A stretch of 53,601 nucleotides of DNA, counting the filler, from Streblomastix strix (lineage: Eukaryota), in assembly GCA_008636045.1 (NCBI GenBank). It is 3 parts of 3 records of this genome, joined end to end, with 100 filler letters (N's around TTAATTAATTAA, not from the genome) between each part and the next. Parts side by side here need not be neighbours in the genome. Positions count along the whole stretch, not along the records: positions 17,917 to 35,711 come from SNRW01000671.1; 2 more parts are not named here. One strand, written 5' to 3'. The notes below the pieces were generated by a model, which saw only the letters and a program-made list of their open reading frames with translations, was not told the DNA's origin and searched no databases. Positions within the stretch are counted from its first letter, which is position 1; each line of letters begins with the position of its first letter. A program made the translations under genes and the position numbers. Below, in pieces: positions 11,301 through 35,811 of the stretch.

Positions 11301-14300
11301 TTATGCTTTATTTTAATATTATCATTATTTTCAAATTTCTATTTTTCTTCGCTTTCTAGTGGTAATAATTAATCAAATATAAGAAGAGTATTCATCATCG
11401 GCAAAATAATTGCTTCAACAGATTCATCAAATATTTCTCCAAAATAAAACGTAATATTATTATTTTATTGTGATTATGATATTTATTTCTATTATATCAA
11501 ACTTTATTAATGATTAAGAAATGAGCAATAAGAAAGATATTCATTAGATGTTTCTAGAAATGAAACGATTTAAGAAGGTTATAAATGAAGAAAAGATTGG
11601 TAATTTATATTTATTTTCGAATTTTTGTCATAAATATTATCTCTATACTCATCATTAGAATCTTATTAATGTTAACAGTTAAATGATTAATTAACAATAT
11701 CATTTAATTTCATCCTTACTCTATCAACCGAATAATATGAAGAAGAATAATTATTTAATTAATCATATATATTTATACTATTAAAATCATTAGGTTTCGC
11801 ATTATTTGCTATTCTATTATTACCATCATCAATTTATTCTTTTTTTATTTACATTTTTTATTTTGAATCTATTTATATTTTATATTAATTTGCATGAATA
11901 CAAAATATAGAAGCAAAACAAGAGAGAATAATGGAAGATATGGGAGAAATTGAATCATCAATAACAAAAACTAATCAAAATAAGCAATTCAATAACCGAG
12001 ATAGGCAGTTTTCGAGAAATGAATTCGAAGAGATAATTTCTTTCAGTTGTTCGTGAGTTTCACAGAAATCAGATTCAATTTTATCAATATTCATTTCGTT
12101 CTTTATTTATTATTCTTATGAGGATTTATATTATTGATACTTAACTAGAATAATTAAAGATCTTGATGAAATTCCAAGAATGATTGATAAGAAGTTTAAT
12201 AATGTAGTTTTTTGTGGATCATCTGTTTTCTAAAATAATTTCTTCAATGATTGAATTGAATCTAATTCAAGCATTTCCAAAAATTCTATAGATAAGAACA
12301 ATGCACACAAAGAAATAGTACAACAATTTAAAAGATCAAATTATTTTGATTAATAATACTAATTCGATGATTAGGATGCTGCAATGAAGTTGAGAGTAAA
12401 AATGGAGAAGAATTTTGAAGGGAATAAGAGTGAAAAATATTATTGAATCATTTCTAAAAGTGGATTAATAGAAAAAAGAAGAGAAAGAGTTATTTAGAGG
12501 TGAGTATATGTTGAAGGGATCAATAAGTATTGAAGTGATTGTTAAGAATGAAATTATGGAATTTATAATTTACATTCATATTATTCTAAGTTTTATTCTG
12601 ATTATTATACAGAAGATGATGAAATGGGATTTTTTATATTTTTATCTATAATAAAATATTCAAATACATCCGAAAGAGAATTTGCAGCTTTCTTTATATG
12701 TTACAAAATAAGAATTACTTTTTCTTCAATAGATTATGTAAATGATGATGACTTGACATACGGTTTAGATTCAAAGTTAATAAGAAAACTTTAGTTTTAA
12801 TTGTCTGTTTAATCAATATTTCTAATATATGACATACTATTAGGTTTAAATAATTATCTACTAAAATTGGTTTAATATTCTTACTAACAAATATTTATCA
12901 TTCTGGTTTATTCTTAATCAATTTCATTTTGAGAACAATAATAATTTTGAGATTAATCAAATGAAGCATTATTTTATACACTATCTATGTTATTCTTTTA
13001 AATCTTTGCATTTTTATTATTATTAGCTGATGCATTTATCTATTCATCAAATGGAATAATATCCATATTTGAAAGTAATAATAATATAGAAGATTTTATT
13101 TTCTCAAGAAAGTGCATTTTTTTCTGAATTTATAAAAAACCAATCATTGAAATTAAATTAAATTGTTTCTTCTGAATATTTTAAGGATATGATTATTTAT
13201 TCTTTATTTCACTAAGATGAGGCAATTCAATAAAAGTATTTGCTTACTGTGATTTTTATTCACTATTATGCAAATCAATAAGTTGATTATATTTCTATAT
13301 ATCAATTAAACAGTTTTAAATTTTGAATTCTGAAATTTGTTGATATTCATCACTCCCTACATATAAAACTAAAATTATCTTGAAAAGTGCAAAATCATTT
13401 CTTAATTTTAGTTCCTACGTTATTAAATATTTCATTTATAAACAAGCTGCTTGTAATGATGATGATTATTAGGACGATTAATCAATTAATGAATATAATT
13501 ATGAATTGTGAAAAATATGCTAAATTGTATATGAAAGCAATTCACTCATTTATGTTAATTGCGTTCTTACCATTGATAATGTCATTCATCTTACATCCGA
13601 TATAATTATTGATTGATTAATAAATTGAAGAAACTGAAAAACTTTTGAATTTTATTGGTTTTAAAGTTAAATAAATTATTTAGAAGAATTATTACTATTC
13701 TTTCCAAAGCATTATTATGAAAGTGAAGCAATCAGTTATTCAATATGAGTTTGTATCCGAGATTATTAGAAATGAAATGAAATATCTTTCTCATAAAATG
13801 AATCAATTAATGAAGAATATGGATCTAAAGGAAGTGGAAATGATTCACCAAGAAGAATATGCAAGAATATCAGTTCATCAGAAATAATCTCAAGAGCCAT
13901 AATTAGTGCAGATATATAAATAAAATTAAGAGAGACATTGAAATATGAATCTTTCTAACTTAAAGAATCAGTTATTTCATTTTATGATTCGTTAAATTTA
14001 GAGTTCTGTTGAAAAAGCTATTATAAACAGCCTTATCGAAGAAGTAGACAAACAGATTGTGCGAAAATTAAGCGAAGTGAGATTGTCCATTAAATTTCAT
14101 TAAAGTTTCTAATTTGTTCAAAATCATTTATATAAAATTGGTTGTGTTTTATTATAATGCAATATTTTGTCATAAAATATATAATATGAGAAAGAATTGT
14201 GATGCAATTAAACGAGTATGAAGAATATTTATCATTAATAATATTATTATTTTATTAACACAAATTTTGGTTTTGTGAGAGTTTATAAAAGAAATCTTAG

Positions 14301-15745
14301 ATTTATTAAATGTCATTAAAGATATATTATTTGTTCAATGAATCTTCATGATAATCAATATGCAATTCTTTTTCTTATTATTCATCTTGTTATTTGAATT
14401 TTTGCTTATAAGTAATAAATTAATCTGGTAAAAAATATTTTATAAGATTTGTAATTGAATGGATATTTGATAATGGAGAAAATTATTAATCGTCATTTTG
14501 TTGCAATTATTGTTCATTTTTTATTAAATCAATATGCTAATTATCTTTTATTATATTTTAAATTCCATTTTTAGACTATTTTTTTAAAAATTTTGTTTAA
14601 TTTTCAGATTTACTTAATGTTTTTTCCGCTAATTTACGAACTCGAGCTTCTTCTTCTCTTTGTAAACGAGCTGCAATCCGGGCAGATGACCTTTTCTAAT
14701 TTTGTGTTGCTTTAGTTTATTTGCTCGGATTTTATTAAGTTTATAATAATTGTTATTAGCTATTGTTTAGTTCTATTTAATGAGAATCATCTTAATTTAT
14801 ATTTATAGTTTAATCTTAATTATTTTAAAATTTAGTTTGATGATCCTAATTTGAATTTAACTATTCATTTATCTAATTCATTGTTTAATCAACTTAATTA
14901 CTTTTATTTTATCCTTCAATTTCAATGTTTTCCTTATTTGCAGTTGATTATTTTTATTCATAAAATTAAATATTTTGTTTATGATTTTATTTGCTTATGA
15001 TTATTTGAATAAATGAAAAAAGATTAAGTGAACATTATTAGTAAATTAAGTTTAAAAGTTCACTCCAACTGCTTATATAAACAATAGTTTTTTCCTATTC
15101 ATTAATTAAATTATTATTTTCTTTTTATCCCACAAAAATTATCATTGTTGGAACAATTAATTATTTCACATCTTCTTTAACTATTGTTTCATGTGCATCT
15201 CTTCGATAATTATAGAATTAATTTGAATCTTATTTAATTTATATTTCATTCAGCTGAGATGGCATCAATGCCATTTGTTGGTACTGTTTAACCACCTAAT
15301 TAATCCGATTAAATGTTTCTTAATCTCCTGTAAAGTGAGCAATTTTAGAAAGCTCATTTAGAGAATCTTATTGAAGAGGACTAATTTCGATGCTACGAAG
15401 AAACGCATTTGATGCTCGTTCCATTTGATTATCGATAAGACAAAGTTACCCTATTTTCTGCCAAATAAATGACATATTTTGTAGATGAGACAATCTTGTA
15501 GCATGTATAAGAGTATTTATCGAAGCTGTAATTTTTCCAAGTTATTGTTGAACTTCAGAAAGGTATAATAATACAGTACCAAAAAATTATTCATTTTGAT
15601 TTGAACTTGGAAGATCAATTATTGAATTCAAAAGGCGTTCAGCCTCCTCTTTATTTTTCTCGGTTTTCGATCTTCTATATGTTTCATAAATATTTTATGT
15701 GTTTTATCTCACATTCACCGAATTAAAGTCTTCATCAAATTACAT
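2332..15745 (-). CDS. Giant (~4470 aa) TPR protein, CABIN1/Hir3-like (HIRA complex scaffold candidate)
   Basis: One frame is open (TAR=Gln) at all spot checks from ATG 15745 to ~3720. Two -1 shifts at A-homopolymers (~3715, ~3180) lead to TGA at 2332. N-terminal TPRs 'LYLSEVQQQLGKITASINTLIHATRL...IWQKIGQLCLIDNQMERASNAFLRSIEISP...LNELSKIAHFTGD' and 'KRSSARI' resemble the CABIN1 N-terminus. Confidence 0.65.
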
Positions 15746-15897
15746 TAGCTGAAAATAAATAAATAAACAAATAAATAAATGTGTGTGAACGGTGAAATTT
15801 ATTTTTTTAATGTTTTTTTGTTATCTCTTTTTTGTTGCTTTTGAAATATTTATTTTGGTTATTTTTATTTATATTGAAATAAAAGCATTGTATATTC

Positions 15898-16774
15898 ATG
15901 TTTAAATCTATTAAGGATGATTTATGCAAATTAATAAGTACATAAATTCCTGGTTCAAGTAATATTCTTGTTGTATGTTCCTCAGAATGTTTGAGTGAAT
16001 TATAATATTAAAAATATGCTAATAATACTGATTTATATTTAATAAAAAATTAAAATTCCAATTTAATAAACAATGAGATATAGAAATGATAAAGTTTGTT
16101 AGAATCATATTGAATCAAATTATTATTTCTTAGCTAGAAATGATATTATTGGTCTTTAATGTTTAATTAATTAGAATTTGATGAATCCATCTGTAGGATT
16201 ACGAAATATAAAAGGACGAGATCGCATTATCAGCACTCTTCGCGAAACAATCTGTGCATCAATCGAAGAACCAAACTTCTTTTCATAGTTTGGTGTATCA
16301 GCACCTCGTTCTGTGATCTTGTATGGACCTCCTGGAACTGGAAAGACTGTATTGGCTAGAGCAGTAGCTTAAGAAACAAGTTCTAAGCTAATAACAATCA
16401 GTGGAAGCGATTTTGGGAAATCTTCAGAAGAACAAGGAATTGAAATATTAAAGAAAACATTTTAATAAGCAAAGAATAATTAACCCTCACTTATTTTTAT
16501 TGATGAAATCGATTCAATATTTCCATCAGTATCAGAATGCAGTGAATTTGGAGGAAGCGGAACAGAAAATGGATTATCATGAAGATTAATTTGGGAGATT
16601 GGAATTCTGATGGATGAATTCAAATCATAAGATAGAGTAGGTATAATTGCAGCTACGAATTGATTAGATATTGTTGATAGATCTCTTAGACGTCGTGGAA
16701 GATTTGACAGAGAAATTGAAGTTGGTGTACCAAGTGAATATGAAAGAAAGAAAAGAATTTTAAATTTTTTCTGA
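15898..16774 (+). pseudogene. Disrupted CDC48/AFG2(SPATA5)-family AAA+ ATPase, single domain
   Basis: Walker A LYGPPGTGKT, Walker B LIFIDEIDS and SRH 'AATN*LDIVDRSLRRRGRFDREIEVGVP' are present. In-frame TGA at 16580 and 16661, a frame break near 16085, and the ORF ends at TGA 16772 after one AAA domain. Confidence 0.8.
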
Positions 16775-16849
16775 AGAAATTAATATATACTGATCTATGT
16801 AATAACTAATGTAAATAATTTTTAATCTTATCTTTTTTAATTATTTTAT

Positions 16850-17816
16850 TTATTAATATATGTATTTATAATATCGATTAAATCAATATTTTTAAGACTA
16901 AATAAAGTTAATTATATTGAATTTGTGTTCTTGAATTTGGATATTTTCTGTTGAATATTTATCTATCAAATGGTCTGAACCTTTCGGTTTTGAAAGATTA
17001 TATTTTAGTCGTTAATAGAATAGAGATTCGATAAAATTTGAATCAATTAATATAAATTAGGAAAAAATGATATGAAAAAAATAATTAGATTTTACAATTT
17101 GATTAAATGTTATAAAATATGATGTTTTTTCAATAATTCTTTCAATAATCTTATTTTTGTCCAAAAATGTTTGCCATAAATTTATATAATTCAAGTTAGC
17201 TATCATCAATTGCCTAATTTTCAAGTTCTTCATTTAAATTTTGTCTAATATTATTTTATTCTTATACTTAGTGTAAAGTATCTTCTATATTAAAATCAAT
17301 ATTATTTTATGAAATAAATGCAGGATTTTGATTTCTCTGTTTGAATTACAAAGTGTTTTATTATACTTATTTTGATGGAGAAATTTTATTTTATTTTTTC
17401 TTATTCGAATTATTAGTTTTTGATGTATTTTTCTTATTTTATTTCTTTGAAATAGATTTTTAATTAACAATATTTTGCTGTTATTCTTGATTTTAATTTT
17501 AATTATTATTTTTCAATCCAAAAGATGAAGATGATGAAGAAGTATTTTTTGAAGATGATATTAATTATATTGGAGAAGAAGATTATTTTATTGGTGATTA
17601 TGATTATTGAAATGGTGAAAAATTACTTCGAAATGGAAAATTTCTGAAAAATACCGATAGTGGAGATTCTTTATTTTCAGAATTATTCTCTTTCTCATTA
17701 AATAAAATATTATCATCAAGTATCTATTTATCTATTTCAATAATTATTTATTTTTCTATGCTTCTTTCTTTGTGGAAAGTAACTTATCTGATAATTTTTT
17801 ATTGCTAATTCCAGAT
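16850..17816 (-). CDS. 3' part of an unknown Gln/Ser-rich gene truncated by the contig end
   Basis: Open frame from 17816: IWNQQQKIIRQVTFHKERSIEKQIIIEID...SPFQQSQSPIKQSSSP. The 3' end is uncertain (TGA or frameshift near 17140). Confidence 0.4.
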
Positions 17817-17916
17817 NNNNNNNNNNNNNNNNNNNNNNNNNNNNNNNNNNNNNNNNNNNNTTAATTAATTAANNNNNNNNNNNNNNNNNNNNNNNNNNNN
17901 NNNNNNNNNNNNNNNN
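17817..17916. other. Artificial contig linker
   Basis: 44 N + TTAATTAATTAA + 44 N = exactly 100 nt. Confidence 0.98.
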
Positions 17917-18235
17917 CCTACAGATCCTTCTCATCTAATAGGAAATGAACAGATACTCTCCCAGCTCTATCTCCCATAGGGGGTGCGGAACTGCTATACG
18001 CCAGGAATTTGATTTCTCGAATTTGAGAGTTCTCCAATCGAATAAATCGTTCCATTCGAAGCCAACGAACAGATAGTTAGGAGCTTATACTGCCAAGCGA
18101 AAACTGCTTTGGACGCAGAGCCGAGTAGTTTGACATTCCACTGTCAACTTTCAGCCCCACCCATATCGACTTAGGCCTCCGTAACTATCCCGTTAGTTGT
18201 GCTAAATGCCAAAAATGATTGTCTTTGGAGAATTG
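17917..18235 (-). repeat. Copy of an interspersed repeat (mobile-element relic) also present at ~37335-37540
   Basis: GTTAGGAGCTTATACTGCCAA-CGAAAACTGCTTT-GACGCAG...TAGTTTGACATTCCACTGTCAAC is shared with 37383-37455. GC content is higher than the flanks. Confidence 0.75.
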
Positions 18236-19258
18236 TAATGATAAGACTAATTATTTTTATTATTATTATTATTTGAAAATTTTATGTATTTATTTCTGAA
18301 ATTTGCAGTATTTTTATTGAAATTTGTAAATTCTCAGTGAAATTGAACATATTTCGATTAAATTTTATTTATAATTATTCGTATTCATTTTATAAGATGA
18401 TTTTAAAAAATTCCTCTGTTAAATTTAACTATGCTTTCGAGAGTTATTTTATAATTTATAAAATTTATTATTTTATATTTATTCGGAAGATATTTAAACA
18501 ATGTATAATTATTAACCTAAAGAAATTTTGAATGGAATTTAAAATATTTCTATATAATTTACGAGTATATGACAATGGAGCTGTAATATTTGAATTTTTT
18601 GAAAATCCTTTCATTATCTTTAGTCTTAATGAGATAAGAAATAGTATATTACTTATTATTGGAGAATATTTTTTCGGAAATTAATTATTAAATCAATTAC
18701 TTCTCCATTTATACAGATTTTTCAAAATTTTATATTTAAGATTAAATGTTCTGCCTCCAATGCCAGCTGCGAAACATGACTAAGTAACTGTGTGAAAATA
18801 TGACAATTACTTAAATTCATCTTTAATAGCAAAAACATGGCTTAATGATATGCTGGACATATATTTTATTGTGCTTTTTCCAATTTTCAAAATGGCCGAC
18901 CCATAGAGCGGACACCCTGTGGTGGGGTCAGTTGCTACGGCCCAAGTGGCATGTATCAAATAAAGAGGTGAAGTAAGGGACTCCAACAGAGATATCCCTA
19001 CATAATATCCTTTAGGTGGTAATTACGAAAAAATTTTTTATATTTTTTTTAACCATTATCCATCATTAGAATTTTTTTGTTGATTTTTTTTAATAAATGA
19101 GCAAAAATTTGTACTTTATATAGAGATTGCGAATTATGTCTAATTCGCAGTTCCGTTTTTTGACAAATCTCTTTTTGAATTAACCGATATTGGCTGTATT
19201 AAAAAAAAACTTTTAACATAAAGATAAATTCTGTTTCATTAATTTTTGTTTCAATGAA

Positions 19259-21240
19259 ATGTCATTCAAATCTAGTGATTATCTTCGATGATTAGCAAAA
19301 ATGCAACATTCTGATTATGTTAGTGGATATTTGTAACTTGGTGAAGTTCTAAAATCATTATCCATTCACCCATAATCATTTTAAATATCAAAACAAAATT
19401 TCTTCGATTCTCCTATAACTGAACTTACATCTAATGGAGTTATATATATTAGAGCACCATTAGGAGCAAGAGGTAAATCTGCATGTTCAATGGTTCAAAG
19501 TTGTTAAGTAAATTGGACAATTACTATACCTAAAAATACCTTTGCGATATAATTAAATAAAACATATAATGACTGAAATACTGCAGGTAAATTAATCGCA
19601 CGAACTAATTTCAATAGTAAGAGGATCCATTAGCCGATTGGACTACAGATATGTCATAAGCTGAATAAGGATATTTTGGTAAAACAGCTTAAGGAATTGA
19701 ATCGTCAGAACATCTATAATTTTGGATTGGATTCTCAACTGCGTGTGGACCATTCTACTAATTTTAACTAATGAAAGATGCAACAGCATTATGGGGATCT
19801 GCAATCAATGCAAGATAATAAGCTGTAATTAGTTGATATTCTCTTAGTGATTTGTGCACTAAAAATAGCGTTAGCGTATTATCTCTTGAAAGTATAATTG
19901 AAGGAAAACATCAATGTGGAGCATTTATTGATATCCCACTTTGTGAAATTGATAGATAAGCAACTATTGAAGATTTAGGAATACCATTTTACTATAAAAT
20001 TCCTTTTGATGTTACGTTCAGTGGAGTACTTGATCTTAACTAACTAAATCTTTTATTTAATTCAATACCTGTTCTCATACGTAATTATGCAACAATACAT
20101 CTATAATTATAGATATAAGATTTCCTGTTAGATTGGAAAGTTGTTTGGCTTATCAAAAATGAAACAGTATAAAATAATCATTTAGCTTATCATATGATTC
20201 AACCTGAGAAACCTGATATTGTATATCTATTATCAGGAGATGATGCAGATGATCTATCGTATAAAAGATATAACGTAAGAATTGTAAATATATAAAATGC
20301 AGCTATTCTTGACAAGATACCACAAAATTCAATTAGTTAGATTGGAACAGCTAAATTTGATACATTAGAGATATAAAACGTATGTTTCAATATTGAAAAT
20401 GAAGAAGCTATAATTGGTATGATTCAATAACAAAAAATAATTAACTTTCCTATATAAGTATTTAATACATAATCATCGAACTTTCCATTTAGTGGATTTG
20501 ATAAAACTAGTGGATCAATGTAAAGCATTATGTCATTCTCTAACATAAAATCACTATTTATGACATTTGCTATGCACTAATATCCAACATGGATTTTCCC
20601 GGTACTATTCACAGGACTTAATCTAGTTATTGATTAGAATAATGTTATCTCATAACCATATAAATCATTAAATTAAGCAACTAATGGATAAATGTTTGAT
20701 TGCTTCGTTGATTAAGATGTTATTAGTGCCCCATCAGATCTATATCATTCACTTACATTCGAGAATTTGAATGTTAATGATAAGAAAAATAACTATTGAT
20801 TGATAGATAATGCCGATTAATATAAAACAGCAAACATATTTTATTTAACAACATTGTATGGTGGAAGTAAAGCTATTAGAACACTTTATCCCAATAAATA
20901 TATGCTTGCATGGAAATTGGCTACTGATGATTAATTTATGCGAGGATATAACTCTTCAAAGATAGGATCAAGAACTAATATATAAGTGATTATATAAAGA
21001 AATTTGACTAAAGGAATTATTTATACAACTAATATAAATTCATCATAGAACTAAAATGATTTCTAATAATTCATTGGAACTAGAGCATATCCTGATCCTA
21101 CTAAAGCATCTATTACTCTAATGATGCATTACTTGTGTGATACGTTTGTTAGAATTATATTTGATGATAGTTCAGTACCATTAGTACTAAATATTGAAGT
21201 TATTGGTGAGCTTGCAGGTGGAGCTATTAAACCTTAATGA
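19259..21240 (+). pseudogene. Putative major capsid protein (~660 aa, double-jelly-roll candidate), disrupted
   Basis: MSFKSSDYLR*LAKMQHSDYVSGYLQLGEVL...QFWIGFSTACGPF...YPNKYMLAWKLATDDQFMRGYNS...MMHYLCDTFVRIIFD...ELAGGAIKPQ*. Beta-strand-like throughout with no low-complexity tracts. In-frame TGA at 19289, 19574, 19834 and 20797, and a frameshift at ~19620. Confidence 0.6.
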
Positions 21241-21292
21241 ATTTACAAAAATAAATTTTTTTTTCATTGGGCATTTATGCCAACTGACAAAG

Positions 21293-21418
21293 TCAGTGAC
21301 ATATCTTTGATTCGCAAGCATATTTGATTGCTGCTTCTAAAATAGTTTTAAATATTGCATGCCAGTTAATGTTCAATTACTCAAGAGAATAGATTATTGT
21401 CTCATTGAATCTTTCCAT
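21293..21418 (-). CDS. Small (41 aa) ORF of the viral cluster
   Basis: MERFNETIIYSLEQLNINWHAIFKTILEAAIKYACESKICH*. It starts 20 bp after the fibre-gene stop, behind TGATTAATTTCAAAATAAACAAAATG. Confidence 0.4.
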
Positions 21419-21438
21419 TTTGTTTATTTTGAAATTAA

Positions 21439-22169
21439 TCAATTTGCAGATTAATTATGAATAGCATATGAATCACAAACTTAAACGCAAAAACCATCAG
21501 GCAAATAAAGCAAGCACATTGTATTTATTATAACATTTCCATTAGAATTAATATAACAATCAATAGGAATTGCACCAGTCCAATCTATTGGATAACCATA
21601 TACCTTTTATGCAAACAGAACAGCATTTAATGGTATGTTAGTTGATGTTCTAGTGAATTTTGGTTTTATAGCATTATCAACGATTGAAAATAAAGTATAT
21701 GCAGATTAATAAAAAGTATTAGGATCTGAATGTGTTATTTACAATGAAATATATACTCTACTATTTTATGTTGTTAATGTACCCTATATGCGTTATTCAT
21801 TCATTCCATAAGCAATTGATGAATAACGTGCATTTTCAATAGGTTCATAATCTAATTAATCTTTTTCAATAGTATCTCCATTAGCTAATAGAATTTAGTT
21901 ACTTGTTCCACCTTATTTAATAATTTTACCAGCTATTATAGGTTATAAAATGTCTTTACTCCACGAATAATCTAGTCAAAATGTAAATTAACAAAATCGA
22001 TAGAATTCTTAAAGAATTAACTTAAATAATTAAAATACTTAATAATCACATTATCAATAACTTACAATAATATATTACGTTCCTTAATTTATTTTTAAAC
22101 CTCTTCTTACTATTTTATTATTTTACTAACCTATTCTTACTAATTAATCTATTCGTCTTCATCAATCAT
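21439..22169 (-). CDS. Tail-fibre/spike-like protein (~243 aa; one frameshift at a T-run ~21950)
   Basis: N-terminal coiled coil, then 'FVNLHFDQIIRGVKTF' and 'IIAGKIIKQGGTSNQILLANG', then a beta-rich C-terminal domain '...GTLTTQNSRVYISLQITH...DCYINSNGNVII...'. Confidence 0.6.
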
Positions 22170-22263
22170 ATCTAAATCGCTTAATTATTATTCAATTTTT
22201 ATTCCAAAAATAATAAACAAAGATTCATAGACTCAAATAGTATAATTGCCATTCGTTCTACAA

Positions 22264-23045
22264 TCAAAAGTCATCTTTTGAAATCTCTGATGTAGGTGCA
22301 TCAGAGAAACGAACAAAGTTCTTGTTAACACAATACTGTTTCTAAATTGAATTATAAAGAACATTTTCAATAACTTATATACTAGCATTTTTAATTATTT
22401 CATCCATTACTCTTATTAGATCTTTCTTTTTATATGATTTACCTATGCATGAATGCGATCTCATTAATGGTTCATCTAATACAATTTCAATATTATTTTC
22501 ATTCTCTTAAGTAATAAATGACCAAAGTTTAATAAAATTATCAGATGAAAGTATAAAATCATCACCTTTTTTCTTGTTGTTACTGTAGCCCATGGCTTAT
22601 CAATGAGGAATTTCATTATTTCAAGATTTGGATGAGAAAGATAAGTGTTTTTAACTACTTCCTCACTGTCAACTTATGCAATTGTTCTATCAATTTGTTT
22701 ATATTTATCTTTATTATATTTGCTCTCATACTTAGTAATTTTTTATTTTGTAAGGATCAATTATTCAGGTGCAACTTGAATAATTTCATTCCCAGTTTAA
22801 ATTATATTTTCTTTTGGTTATAACGTATCATCAATGGTTTCGCAAATGATTTCACTTCGTTCAAGACCTATCTTCGGCGGCAACTCTGTTGCTATCTTAG
22901 GCATTGTCTTAATTCTGCTAATTGCATCATTGATCAATTACAATCTTATTTTATCTTCATCCGTTAATTCTCTATGTTTAATCTCAGACATTTATTTTTT
23001 AGTTTTTGACATGCGAATTGAGTTTCTTTCTATGTCCTTTATCAT
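22264..23045 (-). CDS. Hypothetical protein of the viral cluster (frameshifted at an A-run ~22570)
   Basis: MIKDIERNSIRMSKTKKQMSEIKHRELTDEDKIRL...LIDKPWATVTTRKK/GDDFILSSDNFIKLW...SEISKDDF*. Confidence 0.55.
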
Positions 23046-23068
23046 TTTCTTTATTTAAAAATATTCAA

Positions 23069-23743
23069 ATGGACTTACAACACGCATTAAAGAATTTTAC
23101 TGAAAACGGAACAATTATTGAATATTTTGACAACAGATATGTAATCCAAATTAAAAAAGATATTAAGGTGTTCGAGGAAAGAAAGAAGACACTTAAAAAA
23201 TTATCATAAACATAGTAGAATAAATTATTGTTATAAGCGAAAGGTGGGGTAGCTCCAAATAAAAATGTTTAAAAAGCATCTTAAAAATAAATTGAAGGTG
23301 ATAAAGATTTTATATCTTATGAACCATAAGAAGATTAAAATGAAAGCGATGAAATTTCAATAAGTGAAGTTAGGAAAAAACCATTAAAGAAATAAGTTAG
23401 AAATTACGTTTCCGCCGAAGGTAGCAACAGAGTTGCTGCTGAAGGTAGAAAAAGGGTTGTAAAAACATCAAAAATTTCATAAATTAATAATACTAATGCT
23501 CAACTTGATTTGGAAGAGCTATTTAGGTTGAGAACAGAAAATTCATTTATTAAACAATATCATTTAGATGCTGTTAAGCAAATTGAGAAATATAAATAAA
23601 AAGTTAAACGATATAAGTAACCAAAATAGATTATTGAAAAGGAAGAGCCATAAGAATAATAAGTTTAAGCTCCAAATGAATGTTAAGAGGAATCTGCTTA
23701 GTATGAAGAACATGATAAAGATACTAATTTTGATTTATATTGA
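23069..23743 (+). CDS. Hypothetical 224-aa Lys/Glu/Gln-rich protein of the viral cluster
   Basis: ATG 23069 to TGA 23743 is open with TAR=Gln: MDLQHALKNFTENGTIIEYFDNRYVIQIKK...DKDTNFDLY*. Confidence 0.7.
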
Positions 23744-23769
23744 TTGATTATTTTTGTTCCCTGTTTAAA

Positions 23770-24058
23770 ATGGATTATAAAATAGTATACACAAATGATT
23801 AAGATGAGGTAACATTGACAAGTAATATTCCTAATGATAATTATGAAATGCTTTAGATAGATAGTTGTTAATTATTCTTAACAGATAAACAAATCACTGA
23901 TTGCAAAGTTAATATTAAAATTGTTAACGACAAAAAATAAATACATTAAATAAATTAAATAACTTATTAATGATTATTGTAAGATACATAATACTACAGT
24001 AGCAAGAGAAGCTGAAGAATCTAGATATCTATAATATGAAGTTGATAATGATCTTTGA
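23770..24058 (+). CDS. Small hypothetical protein of the viral cluster (probably one frameshift)
   Basis: MDYKIVYTNDQDEVTLTSNIP...AREAEESRYLQYEVDNDL*. The span (289 nt) is not a multiple of 3. Confidence 0.5.
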
Positions 24059-24083
24059 TCATTATTTTTGGTAACCATTAAAA

Positions 24084-24275
24084 ATGGATTAGACTCGGTA
24101 TAATTATCATAAACAGCAAGAAACATAACTATTAAACGAATATAAACAAAAGACTAAAGAAATTTTAGATTTTGATATAGAACTAAAGTAAAAATAAGAA
24201 CAACATCTATATGCTTTGCTTGACTATACTCGTGGTTCAATATGTATAGCTGACGCTTATCTTAATAAAAAATGA
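24084..24275 (+). CDS. Small 63-aa helical protein of the viral cluster
   Basis: MDQTRYNYHKQQETQLLNEYKQKTKEILDFDIELKQKQEQHLYALLDYTRGSICIADAYLNKK*. Confidence 0.55.
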
Positions 24276-24599
24276 TTTTGATTATTTTTATTAGACAAAA
24301 CACACTTTAATAAACAAATTACCTTTTATCATTACCCCACTTAAATTTACTTTTTATTTATTAAGTAGTAACACTAGATAATCATAAGGATTAACGATAC
24401 AATTAATGATACACATTTACTATCACCGTTTGTTCGAATCGTAAACGAATTTGAATAATCCTTCGTAACTGTGCATTGGATTAATAATATGGATTAATTA
24501 TATGGATTAACGTTTATTTATTCATGATTCACATCTGTGTGGTGAATTAATGTATATATGAACGTTTATTCGATAATTATATGGAAGATTGGCTGTCAT

Positions 24600-25016
24600 A
24601 TGTTAAAAATCATTGATAAATAACTCAAATTGCTACATCTATTCAATTAGCGAAGGCAGATTGATCTGAAAATGAAAGCTTTTTAACATACGGCAAACTT
24701 CTTCTTTGTATACTACTAATCATCAATTCAACCAGCATTAAAAACACTTCAATTCGCTATTGATCAGTGCTATATTCTATTCGAATAATCATGCTCAATA
24801 ACACTCTCCAGTATGATAATGAAGAATCTTTTCTCTAGATTTCTAGATTTCGAAGCGAAGTTTGGAGATTCTAAACATGATTATCATGTAAAGATTCTTC
24901 TTTCAAGATATGCACAAACTGAAGTTGAAGACTAAAAGAAACGATGTGAAGAGATGGGAATTAAATATGAAGAAGAAGAAGAAGATAAGAGCTATGATGA
25001 ATAGGATGAATAATGA
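24600..25016 (+). pseudogene. Isolated C-terminal HAT-repeat fragment resembling rRNA biogenesis protein RRP5
   Basis: 'CYILFEQSCSITLSSMIMKNLFSRFLDFEAKFGDSKHDYHVK..LSRY' matches the pattern of the last RRP5 HAT repeat (LFER..L...KMK.FFK.YL.FE...G....VK). Acidic tail; no upstream S1 domains seen. Confidence 0.55.
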
Positions 25017-25137
25017 TTATGAAATTTGTTTTATTTTATTAATAAATAATAATGAGTGAAAATAAGTTTTTATAACATAAAATACTTTTTAATATTTTTA
25101 TTAGAATAATGATATAAGATACAATTGAGCTCGGCTT

Positions 25138-28100
25138 TCATTTGGGAGGGCATCCACCTTTGCAATAATAATGTCTATCTTGATTATAACAACAATAACT
25201 ATTCTTGCATATGTCCTTTTGACATTTTTCGCATTTCGTAATACAATGATAACAAGGCATTTTCCCACATTGGTTACAATTTTTCTTTGAACTAAAATAG
25301 TGATCATTGCATGATTTCTCATTGCATACAGGGCAAACTTTAACACATTCAGGGCAGAGATGCAAATTGCAGGAATGACATTTGCATTATTTATCTAAGC
25401 ATCCTTCACAGATGATCTTATTACACTTTGGGCATTTTGTCATACAACATGAACAAGTCAATTTGGTGCAAATTATGCAAACTTATCCACTGCTTGTATG
25501 ATCTGAACACCACTTCTATGAACAAGCATTGCATTACTTTGAGCATCCAATACACACTTATTAGTTGCATGTTGCACACATTGCACCACTAGAAAGACAT
25601 TATTTACAAACACTCTCTTTGCATTTGGGACATTTCTTGAAACATTCTTTACATCTCAATTTCTTACATATCTAGCATTCAATCCAATTGTTGTTGCAAT
25701 TATTGCATTATTTCTTCTAACAAATCTGGCATTGTTTGAAACAAGCTTCACAAACCCTTAAACTGCAAGAACATGTTATTCCTTTAGATAAACACCCTTT
25801 GCAAAAGTTCTTATCACATTTCTAGCATTTAATTTGACATTTCAAGCAAATTAACTTTTTGCAGGAATTGCAATTTGATTCATTTCCTAGACAATCTTTG
25901 CATATTATTCCATGTTAACTTTCATTCTATTACAATTCTTTTCTATAAACTTGCTATTCACATTTAGAGCATTTAGTTTCTTTAATTAAGCATCTTTTGC
26001 AAAAGTTCTTATCACATTTCTAACATTTAATTTGGCAATCTCTACATGTCATTTTATCACACTTGTAGCATTTAGATCCAGAATTAACACAGTTCTCGCA
26101 CCATAAATTCGAACATACTTGACATTTCTTAATACATTCTTGGCAGATCTATTTCTAACATCCATCACATTTAATTCCTTTTGATAAACATCCTTTGCAA
26201 ATATCTTTATTACAATTCTGACAGTTTGTTTTGCATTATGTACACATTATCAATTTGCATTTGGAACAACTTACACCAGTGTTAGCATGATCAGAACACA
26301 ACATCTATTAACAATCTTAACATTTCCTTATACAATATTCACAAATCAATTTATCACATCCAGAACATTTAATTCCTTTGCTTAAGCAAACAGTACAAAT
26401 GTCTTTATTGCACATTTGACAATTAGCTTTGCATGTATTGCATGTCATTTTGCTGCATTTATAACATCTAACTCCAGAACTTATACAACCACTGCACCAT
26501 TTGATTCGGCAAGCTTCGCAGTCTTTAATGCATTTCTAACAAATATTTCGTTTGCATCCTTCGCATTATATTCCTTTTTCTAAGCATGTTTTGCATATCA
26601 ATTTATTACATTTATAACATTTTGCACGACAAGCCTTACAAGTCATTTATTTACAATAAGAACAAGATAAGCCATCATCAACACATAATGAACACAAATA
26701 GCATTTACATCTATTACATTATTTACCACATCTTTTGCAAATGTCTTCTTAGCATATCTAACAATGTATTAAGCATTATTTGCAAGGCTACCTCTAACAA
26801 CTTGAACAGGTTGATCCAGATTCCAAACAAACTAAACATTTATTCCTCTTGCATGTTGGACATTGTTTGAAACATGTTGAACAGATTAACTTCTTACAAT
26901 CGGGACATTTAATCCCTTTGGATATGCACTATTTACAATATAAGTGATCGCACAATTCGCATTTCTGTAGGCAATTCTCACAGAATTACTTTAAGCATTT
27001 TAAACATGATGTGTTTGTTCCAATGCATGATGGACATTTAGTCTTCAAACATGTGCTGCATTTCTTAAGACATTCATGGCAATGAAGTTTATTGCAAATT
27101 TCACACTTTTTTAAACATCCATTGCATGATTATTTCAAACAGAATGTGCATTTGGTTTCATCATTCGCACATATTTGACATACTTACTTCTTGCAGTTTG
27201 GACATTCTTTCAAGCAAACTTGGTTGTGTGAAATATTGCAATGTTGACATTTATTGTTCTTATGGCATTAATCGCAAATATACTTTCCACTTTATTCACA
27301 TTTCTTAATACATTGTTTGCAGAATAGTATTCCACATGCATTACATTCAATTGAACAAGCTCTACATCTTTCTTTCTAACATTTCTCACATTTCATTGAT
27401 ACTCGATCTTTCTTGCACAATACACATACAAATGAACTTCCTCCAGAAGAAGGCATTTATTAGAGTTATTATTGGAGAATATTAATAAGATTATTACTTT
27501 CTCTCAGTTCTTACTCAATTAATTTAATTCTTTCTTCCTTTGTTCTAACTTTATCTTCACATCTCTAAAGTCTTTCTTGCATTATATCGCAATTATCACA
27601 ATGTCCACTTTGAATTTAATTCTCTTTGCTTGAAACTTTCGATCTTAATAAAGGAATTAGTTATTGTGCTTATCCTTCAATTGATTATTCTTCTCCTTCT
27701 TCTTCTTCAGCTCCTGAAATCACTTCAAGAATTTATATTATTTCATTTAATTCATTCTTATTCCAAATCAGTCTTTATGCAGTTGCTAATTGTAGTAAGA
27801 TGTCCAAAATAGCAGATTTCACATGATCAGAATTCTACTGCAAAGATGATGAAGATGATGATGAATTATCTTCTTGTTAAAGAATCTAAATTGCTTTATT
27901 CATGAATCCTCCATGTTATACCAGATAAGATTTTAATCCTTTCATTTCAATAATTAAATTGATTAGTGTGCTCTTGCCTGCTTTACAAATAGAGCTGTTT
28001 GGTGATTGAATTGTCTGAATGAGTGTTGAACAGAGGATTTCAATGTGCGCATCTTTTATTGGTTATCCAGATTTCGCATTCAAATTCAGAAGCACACTGA

Positions 28101-28525
28101 GACATAGTGCCTATAAATAGAAGAAGAATTATCTATTAAGAATAAATAATACATACTTATATCTCGGAACTAGTCTACATGCAAAATAATTTTACGATCT
28201 TATCAATCACAAGATCAGCTCCTTAAATAACTTCTTCCAATGCTGGAAAAAATTATTAAAATTATTCATAATTTCAATTTAATAAAACAATTGATCTAAT
28301 ATTTTAGCATACACGTGGATATAAGGAAGAGAAGTTATTGTAATGACTCTTTAAGCTTTTCTCCTTTCAAATGCTCCAAATTCCCAACAATCGAAAGTAT
28401 TTCATTTGGCTATAAAGTTAAAGTTAGAATTTGATATGTGAAAATAGAGGAAATTAGTTTACCTTAACACGAATAGATAAAGTTTCTCGAATTGATGCGT
28501 TTGATCTTTCTTCTTCTTTGTTCAT
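25138..28525 (-). CDS. ~1072-aa protein: helical (ARM-like) N-terminus, coiled coil, ~770-aa CXXC-repeat array
   Basis: Exons 28525-28463, 28409-28313, 28242-28157 and 28110-25138, with GT-AG introns of 53, 70 and 46 nt. They sum to 3219 nt and keep frame. The C-terminal part is continuous CxxC repeats. Confidence 0.8.
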
Positions 28526-30051
28526 TGCTCTACTTTCGAATCAAAAATAATAATTATGATAAAAAAAAATTAGTAATTTTTTTGATTGAGTAGGATCAAT
28601 TAGAATAATTTTAAGAAAATTACAATTATCTATTTCATAATTAACGGTTGTATGATTTAATTGTTGATAATATAGTTAATGCGTTCAAAATTCAAAAAAT
28701 CGCAAAATAAGAACAAATTAATGGAAATCAAAATAGGAAAAAAAAAGAAAAATTAGAATGTAATAATATAAATTATATATTGTTAAATGAAATTGTAAGC
28801 TTTGCAAGTATTTGCTCAATAGTAGTTATAAATAGCGGATTTTATTTAGTATACGATGACAATTTGCGTATCATAAATTAAAACGTTAACAGGCAAAATT
28901 TGGAAGTATTACATTATGTTTATTCAAATTAAAGAATTTAAACAATGAATTATATTTTTCTAATATATATAATATAAAAAATTAAATAAAAATGTTCGAG
29001 ACAAATGAGAAAAATGAAGATTAATCAATTTATTTTTTAGTTGCGTCTAATTGTATATAAATAATCTTATTAATATTATTTTTGGATAAAAAAATTAGTG
29101 AGTAAAAAATAAATTTACGCAATAATGCGAATTGTAAATCGAGGGGGAAAAAATTCGTTTAACTAATAATTCAAAATTTTAGTCAGTTTTTATTTCATAT
29201 ACCTTAGACGCTCAGAAACACTGACAATATAATGCCCATTAAAGAAATCATTTGTAAAATATATCTAATTGCAAAATTTTATATTTTAAAATATAATAAT
29301 TATTTATAGCTAGCATTAAGGAATTTTTTCAATAAAAAAAAATTTGGAAAAAATACTTTTCTGAGAAATCAAATAAAAATTTAATTATTTTCTCAGAAAA
29401 TCATTGAACTACAAAATTAAATATGTTTTCAAAATTTCAAAAAATTTGGTTTTGTATCTCTTAAGATATTTGTAGTTTTTATTCCTATATTTTTAATTTC
29501 ACTTCCAAAAATAATAATCAGTGAGTATGCAATAAAATTTATTTACACTGTTTTTTTATATAAATTTGTTTGAATTCATTTATTCTAAATTTTATCATGA
29601 AAAAATAATACAAATAAAAGCTAGAAATTTTAATTGAGTTTTTTACTAGCATAGTTAAATTATAATTAATTAATTTTTAATTTTATTTTGTTGAAATTAA
29701 ATTATTTATTACATTTTAATAATTATTACTAAATTATTTTTTGATAACTTTAGTTTGATTGATTTTAATGAAATTTAAATTATTAGTTTATTCTTCTCGG
29801 TCGAATGAAGTATATTTTAAACAAGTTTTTATATAAACTCAATTAACAGGACACATAATTTCATACAATTCACATCATTAATATGAAATTATCAATCCAA
29901 CAAAAGATAACAATTTTTCTTTAAAAAAACGTTATTCCGCCACTCCAGCGTATTTTTTACACTTAATAACCTATTTTTTATACTTTCACATATAATTATC
30001 ATATTTATTTCTTCAAATATTATTTTTTTATTAAAAAAGAATCAGAATAAA

Positions 30052-30735
30052 ATGAAATCCGAGTAAGAAATCTAAAAAACAGCAAGAGCCATAGTTTCTT
30101 TCACTGATTCATACTCATAAAACAAGCAAGGAAAGTAAAATGAATAACCAGAATCAAAATCAAAACTATCTCTTACATATATTGTTTCTTCTCTTAAAAA
30201 CCTTTCATAACAAATCCAGATGAACAAGTCATGCAAATAAGTGATTCAGATTCCGAAGTTTCTTCATTCTCTCACTGTACTTTCCAGTTTCAAACTTGAA
30301 ACTCAGTTTAGCAAAAAAATAAACAACCAGAGATGGGAAGTGAGACATTGGAGTAGACTGTGTCTTGCTTGGATTCAACATTATGGTGACGAATATGATC
30401 AAACAGAACTTGCAAATTATGGATATGGAAAAGTGATTTGCATTTTATTCAGCACAGCTGGAGGCATCGGCGAGGAACAGAATGAGGAGATCGGAAATGG
30501 ATTGATGTACATCTACGATTTCCTCAGAGAACTTCATAAAGGGAGAAATAATTAACCATCCTTCCAACCACTTCCATTACTTGCACGAATGACAGAAGAA
30601 TAAATAGAAGAAGAAGGAGCAAATGAAGAAGTTGAGGCCTAAATGATTAATTATGGACATAAATATTGTAATATCAAATATTATGCAAAATACGCAAAAG
30701 CTGTGATTCTGAACCATTTCATTCACAGGCGTTGA
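30052..30735 (+). CDS. 227-aa member of a lineage-expanded hypothetical helical family
   Basis: Intronless ATG 30052 to TGA 30735. Motifs 'FSTAGGIGEEQNEEI' and 'QPSFQPLPLLARMTEEQIEEEGANEEVEAQM' are recalled as typical of an expanded Streblomastix family. Confidence 0.8.
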
Positions 30736-31098
30736 ATATGACCGGTTTGGTACATTCAGTTATATATATATTTTTTCATTATTGAACAACAGTTATTCAT
30801 TTCATGCTTAATTATATATTTTATTTTTTAGTAACTTAATGAAACACTGTGAATGAATTTTTTAAACTTCAAATTATCCATGTGCTTCAATATCTGTACA
30901 TTTGACTAATAAAATAAAAAAATTGCAATAAATTTTGACAAAGTTTAACGTTTTGTAATGCTCTTTATTAATAGGTATATAAAAAAGAAGCCGTGAAATG
31001 AATTGACAGTTATTCCTCATTTGAGATGCGAGAAGAAAAAAAAATTCACTCACAAATCTATTCAGAGTAAAATAACATTAAAACATTCAGCACAATAA

Positions 31099-33494
31099 TC
31101 AGTCACTCAATCTCGGTCGCTTGTTGTTTTGCTTATCCAACATGAATCTAAACAACCGCCTCTGCGTCTTCGCATCAAACTCGTCCAAATCCAACTCGAG
31201 TTCTTCACCAGTTAATCTCTGAATATTATAAGTGGATTATATGGATTTTAAATATTATATATATTATTAATTAACATATTTAATATAATTAATTGATGTT
31301 ATATATAACATTAATTAATATTATTAATTAATATATTTAATATAATTAATTGATGATATATCATATACATCATTAATTAATATATTTAATATATCGTATA
31401 TAATAATCATATTATCCATATATTTCACAATACACACATTCTCAAATCCAGAAACTGTCTTCTTCAAGAACTGGACAATCTTGTCCATTTCTTCTTCGCC
31501 GATCTCCTCAAAATGCGCAGTTACAAATGCATTCTCCTCTTTGGTAAGTGGACTTGTGGAATTAGTTAATGAATGGAATATATAAATATATGAATATGTG
31601 TATAAATGAATATATGAATATATGCATAAATGAATATATGTATAAATGAATGGAATATATGTATAAATGGAATATATGAATATATGTATAAATGGAATAT
31701 ATGAATATATGCATAAATGAATATATGTATAAATGAATGGATACGATAAAAAATTAATAAATAAACAATGAATTTAAAGAAATATGAATAAATAATTGAA
31801 AGCTCAAATCAACATTGCATTTACGCAATTAAATGCTTATAAATTCATATATCGTAAATAACACATATAAATACATATATCATATAAATCATAACATATA
31901 CATCTCAACATACACATCATCATCCGCTTAAGCTATTTCCAGTACACCCAAGTCCTGTTATTATTATTAATCATCGTTTTCATCATCAAGATCATCCTCA
32001 AGGTCATCATCATCATCTTACGGGTACATCTACTTGTTCTGCGAAGGTGTAATGTAATTCATATTATTCATGCTAAGGTTGCCCATTCTTGGGTCCATCT
32101 AATTAATTGAGCTTATCGGTTCTGGTATTTAGTACTATTATTGGTACATTAGCCCATTGGGCGTTCTAATGTTCTATCTCCCTCTAGTAATTTGACGTGG
32201 TGTTTTATTCATAACAGGGTAGTATTCTATTTAGTTAGTAGGATCATATGGTTGTTGCTACTATTGCAACTATTACTATGGGTAGAGATACTGCTGATCA
32301 TACCGACTATCAACCTTCTGCTTCTTCTTCTTCGGATTCCGCGGTCTTTTCTTCGCTTTTTTAGTGTCTTAGTATATAAGAGGTAAAACGTTCATCCCCT
32401 TCTACTACGCCATCTACAGTTACATCTACCTGTCTATTATATACCCCTCCTATGAAGTCTGGGGCGATTTCCTTATTTTTGCAGCTTTCCCAGTTCGTGG
32501 ATTGACAACGGGACCTCCTTTCTCTAACACAACGCCTTCTATGGCTTTAGAAGCTGCAACTGAAGCTGGACGTGGCTTTCTTTTAACCAAAGGCTCAGAT
32601 TGCAAGGTTTGGTTGTGATGTGATTATTGAGATGCTTACTGCTAATATAGTCCTTATTATCCATCAAGCAGTTATTATTATTATTATTACTATTACTGTT
32701 ATAACTACATTTATTACCCAGGGTTTATCTTGCTCGCCGCTAACAGATGCCTCGCTTCTGATATTTTCGCTTCCTCCACTTCTTCATTCGTCCACCATCC
32801 TTTCTCAACGACATGCTCAAGTTTCTCTGCGAAAATCTTCTGCAGGTCATTCGCCATTATTGTGACTAGCGTATCCTTCTTGTTGTATAAGTAGCAGTTA
32901 TCCCACACTAAGTGAACAGCATCAAGCACTTCTGACGCGCTTCGAAACATGGGCTGTTTCACTGATTGGGCCACAATATCAGATGGGCGAAGAATTTGCG
33001 GGTTTTTGGTCTTCTTCGGTGTAGTGAAGGTCGGGATTCGGTCTTTGATGGTCCCCAAATCGATTGGGCGTTTGACTATTGTGAAGTAGTCGGGGATGTT
33101 TAGTTGGATTGGGTCAACTGGGGATGAAAAGGGACCCCCTGCTTTGTGCTGCATTAGGTCGATGATGCATTTGCGGAGGTAGCTGTGGTGTAGATATATG
33201 TGCATGTGTATGTTTATTATATTTAGAGAGTAAGAATTATATATTAGAAATTTATTGAAAAAATATATATATTATAAAAATTATTAGAAAAATTATTTAT
33301 TTGTTTGAAAAATAACAATACTTTAGAGCATCAACAGTTCGACGGTTGAACTATCCACTGTTACTTGAACCAACTTGTCTTGTTGGAGATTCATTATTAT
33401 CATCTGATGAATCAGTTCCTCCTTTGTTTGGTTTAGAATTTTCCATTGAACCAAGCACATCCATGAGCTTGTCATATGCGCCGGTATCAGCCAT
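31099..33494 (-). CDS. BET/GTE-type protein: single bromodomain plus ET (NET) domain
   Basis: Exons 33494-33322, 33182-31914, 31552-31438 and 31218-31099. Bromodomain 'GPFSSPVDPIQLNIPDYFTIVKRPIDLGTIK...LVWDNCYLYN'. C-terminal ET 'PLTKEENAFV...MDKIVQFLK...ELELDLDEFDAKTQRRLFRFM'. Confidence 0.88.
31570..31742. repeat. Intronic minisatellite (GAATATATGTATAAAT-like units)
   Basis: Tandem degenerate units inside intron 2 of the bromodomain gene. Confidence 0.85.
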
Positions 33495-34321
33495 TTTAAC
33501 AAGCTGGAATAAATTAAATTTGAGTTGGAAATAAAGATAAGTGAATGAAATAGATAAATATAATCAGATAATATAAGTAAAAGAGTGCAAATTATGGCAA
33601 TTAAGTTTTTAAAAAAATCAATAAATGTATTAATTAGACAATTTTTAAGATAATTTATTTCAAAATATGATCAAATGCCATATATTAAAAAATAACTATT
33701 AATAAAACAAAAAATAATTTGATTGTAACTGAAAAATATGGTGCGAATGGCGATATTTGTTGAAAAAAATTAAAAATGTTTCTGTGCTCTATACATATTT
33801 TAAATAACTTTACAATATGTCATAAATCATATAAATAAATAATTTCAATAGTACAAAATATATTATAAAATAATAAAATAGACAGATCAGTCATAATGTA
33901 GGCTTTTTTAGTAAATTTCAATTTAATCGGATGATCAAACGTTATATGTATAGATTTTGTGAATAAACTATAATTATATATATAAAGAATACAATTCTTA
34001 TAGTATAAGCTGAAATTAAAATGTAAATGTGCCAAATTAAAAAAAATAAAAGAATCAAGCTGGAATTGAACCTGTGATTTCTTATATAATAACAAAAATA
34101 AAAGCAAAATTAGAAAAATAATCTCGCCAAAATAATTTCGATTCCCCATAAACACAAGCAAGATTAATTTTAATTTCTGAATATTTACTTAGAATCGATT
34201 GTTTTTTTTAATGAAAAAGTGATGTTAAAAATAATAATTTGATAAAAAATAATTGATAGACTTTTTTTCTGTTCTATTTAACATAACGAATATTTAATAA
34301 TAATAAAATAAATAAATAAAC

Positions 34322-35711: not shown

Positions 35712-35811
35712 NNNNNNNNNNNNNNNNNNNNNNNNNNNNNNNNNNNNNNNNNNNNTTAATTAATTAANNNNNNNNNNNNNNNNNNNNNNNNNNNNNNNNN
35801 NNNNNNNNNNN
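35712..35811. other. Artificial contig linker
   Basis: 44 N + TTAATTAATTAA + 44 N. Confidence 0.98.

What the first reader, a model, noticed from the sequence alone, without database searches (positions are those of the whole stretch)
19259..24275. Endogenous DNA virus module (capsid-like gene, fibre gene and small ORFs) written in the host's TAR=Gln code
Seen: seven intronless, densely packed ORFs, unlike the intron-bearing, low-complexity host genes around them. They are readable only with TAA/TAG=Gln, so they are largely invisible to standard ORF calling. Established: Polintons/Mavericks and Polinton-like viruses integrate in protist genomes, including metamonads, and carry MCP, minor capsid, A32 ATPase, protease and pPolB/integrase. 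Inference: this is the virion-morphogenesis part of a divergent oxymonad virus that had adopted the host's recoded alphabet. Such an element would be host-restricted by its genetic code.
Basis: partly seen in the sequence, partly recalled or inferred. Interest (0 to 1): 0.88.

Follow-up and report, generated by a model that had tools for sequence, protein, structure and literature searches.

The report
Broken recoded virus in termite-gut protist
A 5.6-kb broken piece of a DNA virus, with a predicted capsid gene and a likely spike gene, sits in the genome of a termite-gut protist and uses the host's unusual genetic code; recoded viruses in this host are already published, but this looks like a second, uncatalogued lineage whose metagenomic relatives use the standard code.

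Summary
Real, but not as described. The stretch is a truncated, decayed copy of a multi-copy endogenous virus of Streblomastix strix.
- Capsid gene (19259-21240): four in-frame TGA stops and a frameshift. An intact homolog folds (pLDDT 87) as a double-jelly-roll major capsid protein (Foldseek E 3e-11; Z 21).
- Fibre-like gene: also frameshifted; a homolog is predicted trimeric (0.81 vs control 0.00).
- Copies: 224 capsid, 95 fibre and 29 other homologs; all listed ones are S. strix; 12 capsid-fibre pairs have neighbouring tags on contigs of equal length.
- Code: 101 of 118 Gln codons are TAA/TAG.
- No ATPase, polymerase, integrase or terminal repeat found in this copy.
The main hook, code-6 viruses in S. 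strix, was published by Bellas et al. 2023. This capsid matches neither their DUF4106/Metamonada group nor their tabulated representatives. Its nearest outside relatives (21-29%) are standard-code metagenomic contigs with a P-loop ATPase and, in one, a primase-helicase. The window is three joined contigs.

The parts
19200..24830 (.). Approximate extent of the multi-copy viral segment (truncated copy; no terminal repeats or target-site duplication found)
   Evidence: Summed contig depth in run X1 is 14-30 in bins 18167-19154, 1,395-51,851 in 19155-24588, 380 in 24589-24835 and about 50 beyond (summed depth is not a copy number). Only short AT-rich inverted repeats among the 25 longest shown.
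19259..21240 (+). Major capsid protein pseudogene, predicted double jelly-roll, about 650 codons; 4 in-frame TGA stops, 1 frameshift near 19590-19620
   Evidence: tblastn of P0006: 81% over 19259-19624, 76% over 19591-21246. Homolog P0013 (65-67% identical) modelled at pLDDT 87.0, pTM 0.91; capsid matches.
21293..21418 (-). Small 41-codon ORF recurring in gene models of other copies; may not be a gene
   Evidence: Tails of P0137, P0138, P0155, P0206 match it at 67-85%; translation.
21439..22169 (-). Fibre/spike-like gene (charged N-terminus, short shaft, head domain), frameshifted near 21950
   Evidence: 95 homologs, all S. strix. P0137 matches both frames. Homolog P0130 46-237 predicted homotrimer, 0.81 vs best control 0.00. 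Atlas tail-fibre leads only 0.80-0.82; no significant Pfam, PHROGs or PDB match.
22264..23045 (-). Unknown viral gene in two frames (157 and 99 codons), probably one gene broken near 22567
   Evidence: Other copies' gene models match 23045-22731 and 22479-22300. A minority of contigs in three runs carry one more base at 22567 (482 of 4252 depth in X1), which fits the frame offset. No Pfam or PHROGs match.
23069..23743 (+). Open 224-aa charged protein with C-terminal coiled-coil-like stretch; possibly shared with the standard-code relatives
   Evidence: 29 homologs, all S. strix. Family profile hits L006:15308-15949 at E 2.3e-4 in a small database; hhalign probability only 14.5%, E 0.0019.
23770..24058 (+). 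Small gene, 67 codons then a frame change near 23930-23970
   Evidence: shares a 31-nt start region with the next ORF (repeat D1).
24084..24275 (+). Small 63-codon ORF; some copies skip 24058-24317
   Evidence: P0379 matches 24159-24272 at 63%; joint 24057-24318 in contigs of X1 and X2.
24558..25016 (+). 152-codon ORF at the right edge, partly inside the repeated segment; origin unresolved
   Evidence: no Pfam or PHROGs match.
17817..17916 (.). Artificial spacer between contigs; genes at 1-17816 are not linked to the element
   Evidence: N44-TTAATTAATTAA-N44, repeated at 35712-35811; piece lengths fall in order 17,816, 17,795, 17,790.

Best explanation
This is a truncated, decaying chromosomal copy of the structural-gene region of a likely Polinton-like DNA virus of the oxymonad Streblomastix strix, whose genes use TAA/TAG for glutamine and whose capsid gene is predicted to encode a double-jelly-roll protein. 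Shown: the breaks, the codon use, the many related copies and their linked gene order. Predicted: capsid fold and trimeric fibre, both from intact homologs. Inferred: the parent was a virus of about 20 kb that packaged DNA with a P-loop ATPase, replicated with a primase-helicase, entered the host chromosome repeatedly over a long time, and took on the host's code because host ribosomes translate its genes. Inferred: this copy lost its ends and its other genes and can no longer make capsid, while some other copies may be intact.
For: Fold: pLDDT 87 model of P0013. Foldseek PDB best rows are PBCV-1, EhV-201, iridovirus, mavirus and Sputnik capsids, E 3e-11 to 5e-10. VIA Z 21.2, rmsd 4.1, 352 aligned to PBCV-1; the top 15 rows (Z 21.2-8.1) are all viral capsid or scaffold proteins. 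Copies: 224 capsid hits, the 120 listed all S. strix, 43-91% identity. 12 capsid-fibre pairs share contig length with tags within 4; 13 of 95 fibre tags lie within 4 of a capsid tag against 1.8 in random draws. At least 5 of 29 homologs of the 224-aa gene neighbour a capsid or fibre hit (picked by eye). Host linkage: a bromodomain gene lies on the same contig. Code: 28 of 41 TAR codons in the capsid sit where Gln is the commonest residue in S. strix homologs, 17 at 80% or more Gln. Decay: 26 of 222 conserved columns differ (11.7%) against a family median of 3.5%. Relatives: 5 of 7 metagenome pattern hits encode the capsid; the four complete ones have no in-frame TAR and stop at TAA. They carry Walker-A ATPases (L002, L006, L007) and in L006 a DUF5906/primase protein (E 7e-9, 1e-22). 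A small amphipathic-looking protein and an HNH are shared with S. strix gene models (E 3e-8, 1e-4). S. strix capsids form one side of a branch, SH-aLRT 100, quick tree.
Against: No ATPase, penton, polymerase, integrase, protease or terminal repeat was found in the window copy. I could not read longer S. strix copies as DNA (no genome held), so their replication and integration genes are unseen. Bellas et al. report that stops in such elements can be assembly artefacts, and no listed contig bridged any of the four TGA codons (8 of 841 pieces shown). The trimer job used three copies, outside its calibration, and a pass may come from memory of solved fibres. The hosts of the standard-code contigs are unknown.
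Confidence: 0.85

Rival explanations
1. The copy is intact in the cell and the stops and frameshifts are artefacts of assembling many near-identical copies from short reads.
For: Bellas et al. corrected such stops in other protists. At 19576 all contigs laid from three runs show the other letter.
Against: Run X1 holds contigs identical to this copy at depth 11-18, like the unique flanks (8-14), including 20023-20191, which covers a private change at a conserved Trp column. Missense changes are spread over conserved columns at three times the family median. Contigs drop rare variants.
Confidence: 0.08
2. The family is only a divergent part of the published Metamonada (T. vaginalis Maverick, DUF4106) capsid group, already counted among the 820 S. 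strix hits of Bellas et al.
For: Second-best Atlas feature hit is a mostly parabasalian 583-aa cluster, score 0.97. By eye the two capsids share an order of motifs. The S. strix rows of Table S5 were cut from the file I could read.
Against: 0 of 40 and 0 of 11 aligned members match DUF4106, which is in the library (no positive control run). Four motifs of this family and one of its relatives occur nowhere in the held supplements, while a control motif of their S. strix representative does. Five motifs of that representative occur in none of 367 proteins fetched. All 820 hits fall in one column of their Table S4.
Confidence: 0.2
3. The element is a virophage or a true Maverick/Polinton (protein-primed polymerase, retroviral integrase, protease) rather than a Polinton-like virus.
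For: Mavirus and Sputnik capsids match (E 2e-10 to 5e-10, Z 15.4 and 13.9). High copy number implies efficient integration.
Against: No Pfam virophage capsid match in 40 members. No polymerase B, integrase or protease among 37 ORFs scanned from L003, L005, L006 and L007, which are held only in part or are fragments; L006 has a primase-helicase.
Confidence: 0.2
4. The capsid gene family was domesticated and spreads as a non-viral host repeat.
For: No replication or packaging gene in this copy.
Against: The capsid travels with a fibre-like gene and small ORFs in dense order, many gene models are fragments, and the relatives lie on virus-sized contigs.
Confidence: 0.04

Closest known systems
Metamonada group of endogenous viruses (MCP cluster 40, DUF4106; T. 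vaginalis Mavericks and 820 S. strix hits; Bellas et al. 2023, PMC10120064)
   Same: Same host, same use of the host's TAA/TAG=Gln table, double-jelly-roll capsid, many integrated copies.
   Different: Capsid about 645 aa against 562 aa for their representative; no DUF4106 match; family motifs absent from their Tables S2-S3.
Polinton-like viruses (Yutin et al. 2015, PMC4642659, abstract read)
   Same: Double-jelly-roll capsid; relatives with P-loop ATPase on 20-23 kb contigs; no protease or retroviral integrase seen.
   Different: Minor capsid protein not identified; no integrase seen; ATPase not yet shown beside an S. strix copy; capsid matches no Pfam family.
Virophages (mavirus, Sputnik) and Maverick/Polinton elements
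   Same: Capsid fold; endogenous habit (recalled for mavirus).
   Different: Sequence identity 8-10% in structural alignments; no protease, pPolB or RVE integrase found in what was held.

Membership tests
Polinton-like viruses | Double-jelly-roll major capsid protein | tested here: met
   Model of intact homolog P0013, pLDDT 87; Foldseek E 3e-11; Z 21.2, rmsd 4.1, 352 aligned. The window gene itself is broken.
Polinton-like viruses | Packaging ATPase | tested here: inconclusive
   No Walker-A motif in six frames of 18300-25100. Walker-A ATPases lie near the capsid in L002, L006, L007. Longer S. strix copies not readable.
Polinton-like viruses | Minor capsid (penton) protein | tested here: inconclusive
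   No sequence match for any window ORF; the other ORFs were not folded.
Polinton-like viruses | Genome of Polinton/virophage size | tested here: inconclusive
   Window copy 5.6 kb, truncated; relatives lie on contigs up to 20-23 kb.
Polinton-like viruses | Terminal inverted repeats and integrase in integrated copies | tested here: inconclusive
   None found around this truncated copy; no integrase among 37 ORFs of partly held relatives.
Metamonada group (DUF4106, MCP cluster 40) | Capsid matches DUF4106 / clusters with T. vaginalis MCP | tested here: not met
   0 of 40 and 0 of 11 members match PF13388 (family present). No positive control with a cluster-40 S. strix protein was run.
Metamonada group (DUF4106, MCP cluster 40) | S. 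strix members use the host's translation table | tested here: met
   101 of 118 Gln codons are TAR.
Maverick/Polinton | Protein-primed polymerase B, RVE integrase, adenain-type protease | tested here: inconclusive
   None in the window or in the held parts of relatives; whole-record search not possible.
Virophages | Virophage-type capsid, penton, ATPase and cysteine protease | tested here: inconclusive
   Fold matches mavirus (Z 15.4) and Sputnik (Z 13.9) less well than PBCV-1 (Z 21.2); no Pfam virophage capsid match in 40 members; no protease seen.

The most novel reading that the evidence does not exclude
An undescribed family of double-jelly-roll viruses of anaerobic protists, replicating with a primase-helicase, of which one branch colonised S. 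strix and switched to TAA/TAG=Gln independently of the published Metamonada viruses. Some copies are still intact (21 of 120 listed capsid gene models are near-complete) and still make virions that only code-6 hosts can translate.
Probability: 0.4. Interest if true: 0.65.

Novelty: new member of a known kind. Interest (0 to 1): 0.45.

Why it matters
If the lineage is separate from the Metamonada group, the published viral load of S. strix (820 capsid hits) is an undercount. One host would then hold two virus lineages that each adopted its code. With standard-code sister genomes at hand, one can study how a eukaryotic DNA virus changes genetic code and whether this locks it to its host. The capsid profile also finds metagenomic viruses that Pfam and PHROGs miss. 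This particular copy is a relic and matters only as a pointer to the family.

Tried and rejected
No host genome was held, so copies were traced through public protein records and tag adjacency. The first fold (40 close sequences, pLDDT 44) gave no Foldseek match and best Z 3.2. Sequence searches of PDB, Pfam, PHROGs and phage genomes found nothing for the capsid. Seven IMG/VR scans gave no relative (the 6 loci failed the profile). One exact S. strix-type pattern found nothing in metagenome contigs; 2 of 7 hits of the second were chance. No RNA holder listed. No Rfam match at gathering score; two chance-level matches by E-value. No fibre homolog in the standard-code loci. The tree is the quick method and has long branches among the outside relatives. 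Ten paper searches found only Bellas 2023 on S. strix endogenous viruses; subscription papers are not covered. The egovirus preprint does not mention S. strix. Earlier scan notes held nothing relevant. Rejected: cellular fold; single-copy gene; TAR codons made by decay alone (decay of about 12% at conserved residues cannot turn 86% of Gln codons to TAR; inference); linkage to genes left of 17817.
Full report
What is in the sequence. The window is three contigs joined by 100-base spacers; the finding lies on the middle one, 17917-35711. That contig also carries a bromodomain gene and a cysteine-rich gene, so the segment is linked to host DNA on its right. Reading frames cover 93% of 19259-24275 and are open only under table 6. 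They are not seven intact ORFs. The large plus-strand gene, 19259-21240, has TGA at 19289, 19574, 19834 and 20797 and changes frame near 19590-19620. The minus-strand gene 22169-21439 changes frame near 21950. 23045-22264 lies in two frames, and 23770-24058 changes frame too. Of the larger genes only the 224-codon ORF is open throughout.

Copies. The large gene, read with X at its stops, has 224 homologs; the 120 listed are all Streblomastix strix proteins at 43-91% identity, some named 'major capsid protein' by UniRef. The 21442-21975 piece has 95 homologs and the 224-aa ORF has 29, all S. strix. Twelve capsid-fibre pairs share a contig length and have locus tags within four of each other; 13 of 95 fibre tags lie that near a capsid tag, against 1.8 expected. 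Summed contig depth in a termite-gut run rises from 14-30 in the left flank to thousands from about 19200 to 24590 and falls to about 50 after 24835. This marks the repeated segment but is no copy number, and that run may be the source of the window. No terminal repeats were found.

Capsid. A first model on 40 close sequences failed. A profile search of 1.84 billion representatives gave 215 hits and ten long distant ones at 21-29% identity. With 93 sequences the intact homolog P0013 folded at pLDDT 87.0, pTM 0.91. It matches double-jelly-roll capsids throughout: PBCV-1 E 3e-11, mavirus 2e-10, Sputnik 3.5e-10; Z 21.2 (rmsd 4.1, 352 aligned) for PBCV-1, with the top 15 rows all viral capsid or scaffold proteins. 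BFVD and the Atlas agree. Identity to all of them is about 10% or less, so the fold does not fix the class.

Fibre. No library names it; Atlas leads to tail-fibre families are under 0.9. Residues 46-237 of homolog P0130 were predicted as a homotrimer: score 0.81, best of 3 controls 0.00; the mark was reached by 21 of 30 solved pairs and 0 of 23 single chains; runs agree in at least 78% of contacts; partner pLDDT at least 68. Three copies lie outside the calibration and the pass may come from memory of solved fibres. 'Fibre' is therefore likely, not shown.

Code and decay. 101 of 118 Gln codons in the element are TAA/TAG, against 67-68% in two host genes on the contig. In the capsid, 28 of 41 sit where Gln is the commonest residue among S. 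strix homologs. The copy differs at 26 of 222 conserved columns (11.7%; family median 3.5%; 9 of 70 homologs at 1% or less; the columns were defined on the same set). So the code was in use before this copy decayed (inference). 21 of 120 listed capsid gene models are near-complete, though gene models can hide stops behind called introns. Contigs identical to this copy exist at flank-like depth, but none shown bridges a TGA.

Relatives. Five metagenome contigs encode the capsid. The four complete genes use CAA/CAG only and end in TAA. L002, L006 and L007 carry Walker-A ATPases; L006 carries a 942-aa DUF5906/primase protein, an HNH and a 1400-aa protein with a tail-like motif. A small protein near their capsid matches the start of S. 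strix model P0003 (E 3e-8), and the HNH matches P0196. The 224-aa family matches L006:15308-15949 weakly. No polymerase B, integrase or protease was seen in 37 ORFs scanned, but the contigs are held in part or are fragments. The 25 S. strix capsids form one side of a long branch against 12 outside sequences (quick tree).

How it most likely works. The parent was probably a virus of about 20 kb with this capsid, a trimeric attachment fibre, an ATPase and a primase-helicase. It entered the S. strix genome many times and drifted to TAA/TAG for Gln because host ribosomes read them so. A standard-code cell would stop within 55 codons in every gene here, so host restriction is plausible but untested. 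This copy lost its ends and is inert as far as capsid goes.

What is known. Bellas et al. 2023 (PMC10120064; passages read; supplements searched, first part read in 103) state that S. strix endogenous viruses use the host's table and count 820 capsid hits, all in one cluster, seeded by the T. vaginalis DUF4106 capsid. This family appears different: no DUF4106 match in 40 and 11 members (no positive control), and its motifs are absent from the held supplements while a control motif is present. Their Table S5 was cut before the S. strix rows, so inclusion is not excluded. Yutin et al. 2015 (abstract) define Polinton-like viruses by major and minor capsid and ATPase; only the first is met here. 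One passage of the Yaravirus preprint places a primase/polymerase near Streblomastix sequences, a lead not followed. Ten paper searches found no description of this lineage.

Verdict. A real but broken endogenous virus fragment; a new member, probably a new capsid lineage, of a known kind. Interest 0.45.

Noticed in passing
window 17817-17916 and 35712-35811: Artificial spacers with stops in all frames: the window is three unrelated contigs, which affects any neighbourhood claim made on it.
   Followed up: yes
window 17920-18223 and 37383-37530: A 148-nt repeat (82%) shared by two contigs, with raised depth in X1; no Pfam or Rfam match; possibly a transposon remnant.
   Followed up: partly
window 25138-27945: 935-aa cysteine-rich protein of CxxC repeats with a 198-nt period; no Pfam match.
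   Followed up: no
window 46386-52913: IRE1-like kinase with ribonuclease 2-5A domain.
   Followed up: no
L006:16966-17229, L007:3824-4054, L002:2083-2286; P0003 1-51: Small protein with an amphipathic-looking N-terminus near the capsid in relatives and in an S. strix gene model; recalls membrane-lytic virion peptides (from memory, untested); absent from the window copy.
   Followed up: partly
L003 right end (13060-13100): The contig ends in tandem copies of an 11-nt unit, perhaps a genome terminus or a host repeat.
   Followed up: no
L007:5380-7290: Three adjacent paralogous genes of about 200 aa beside the ATPase; no family match.
   Followed up: no
window 19816, 20110, 20932: Changes to TAA/TAG at conserved Glu, Trp and Ser columns: nonsense in the standard code, only missense here.
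   Followed up: partly
fibre family P0141-P0186: Two forms: a short one as in the window and a longer one with an extra domain of about 95 aa between shaft and head.
   Followed up: no
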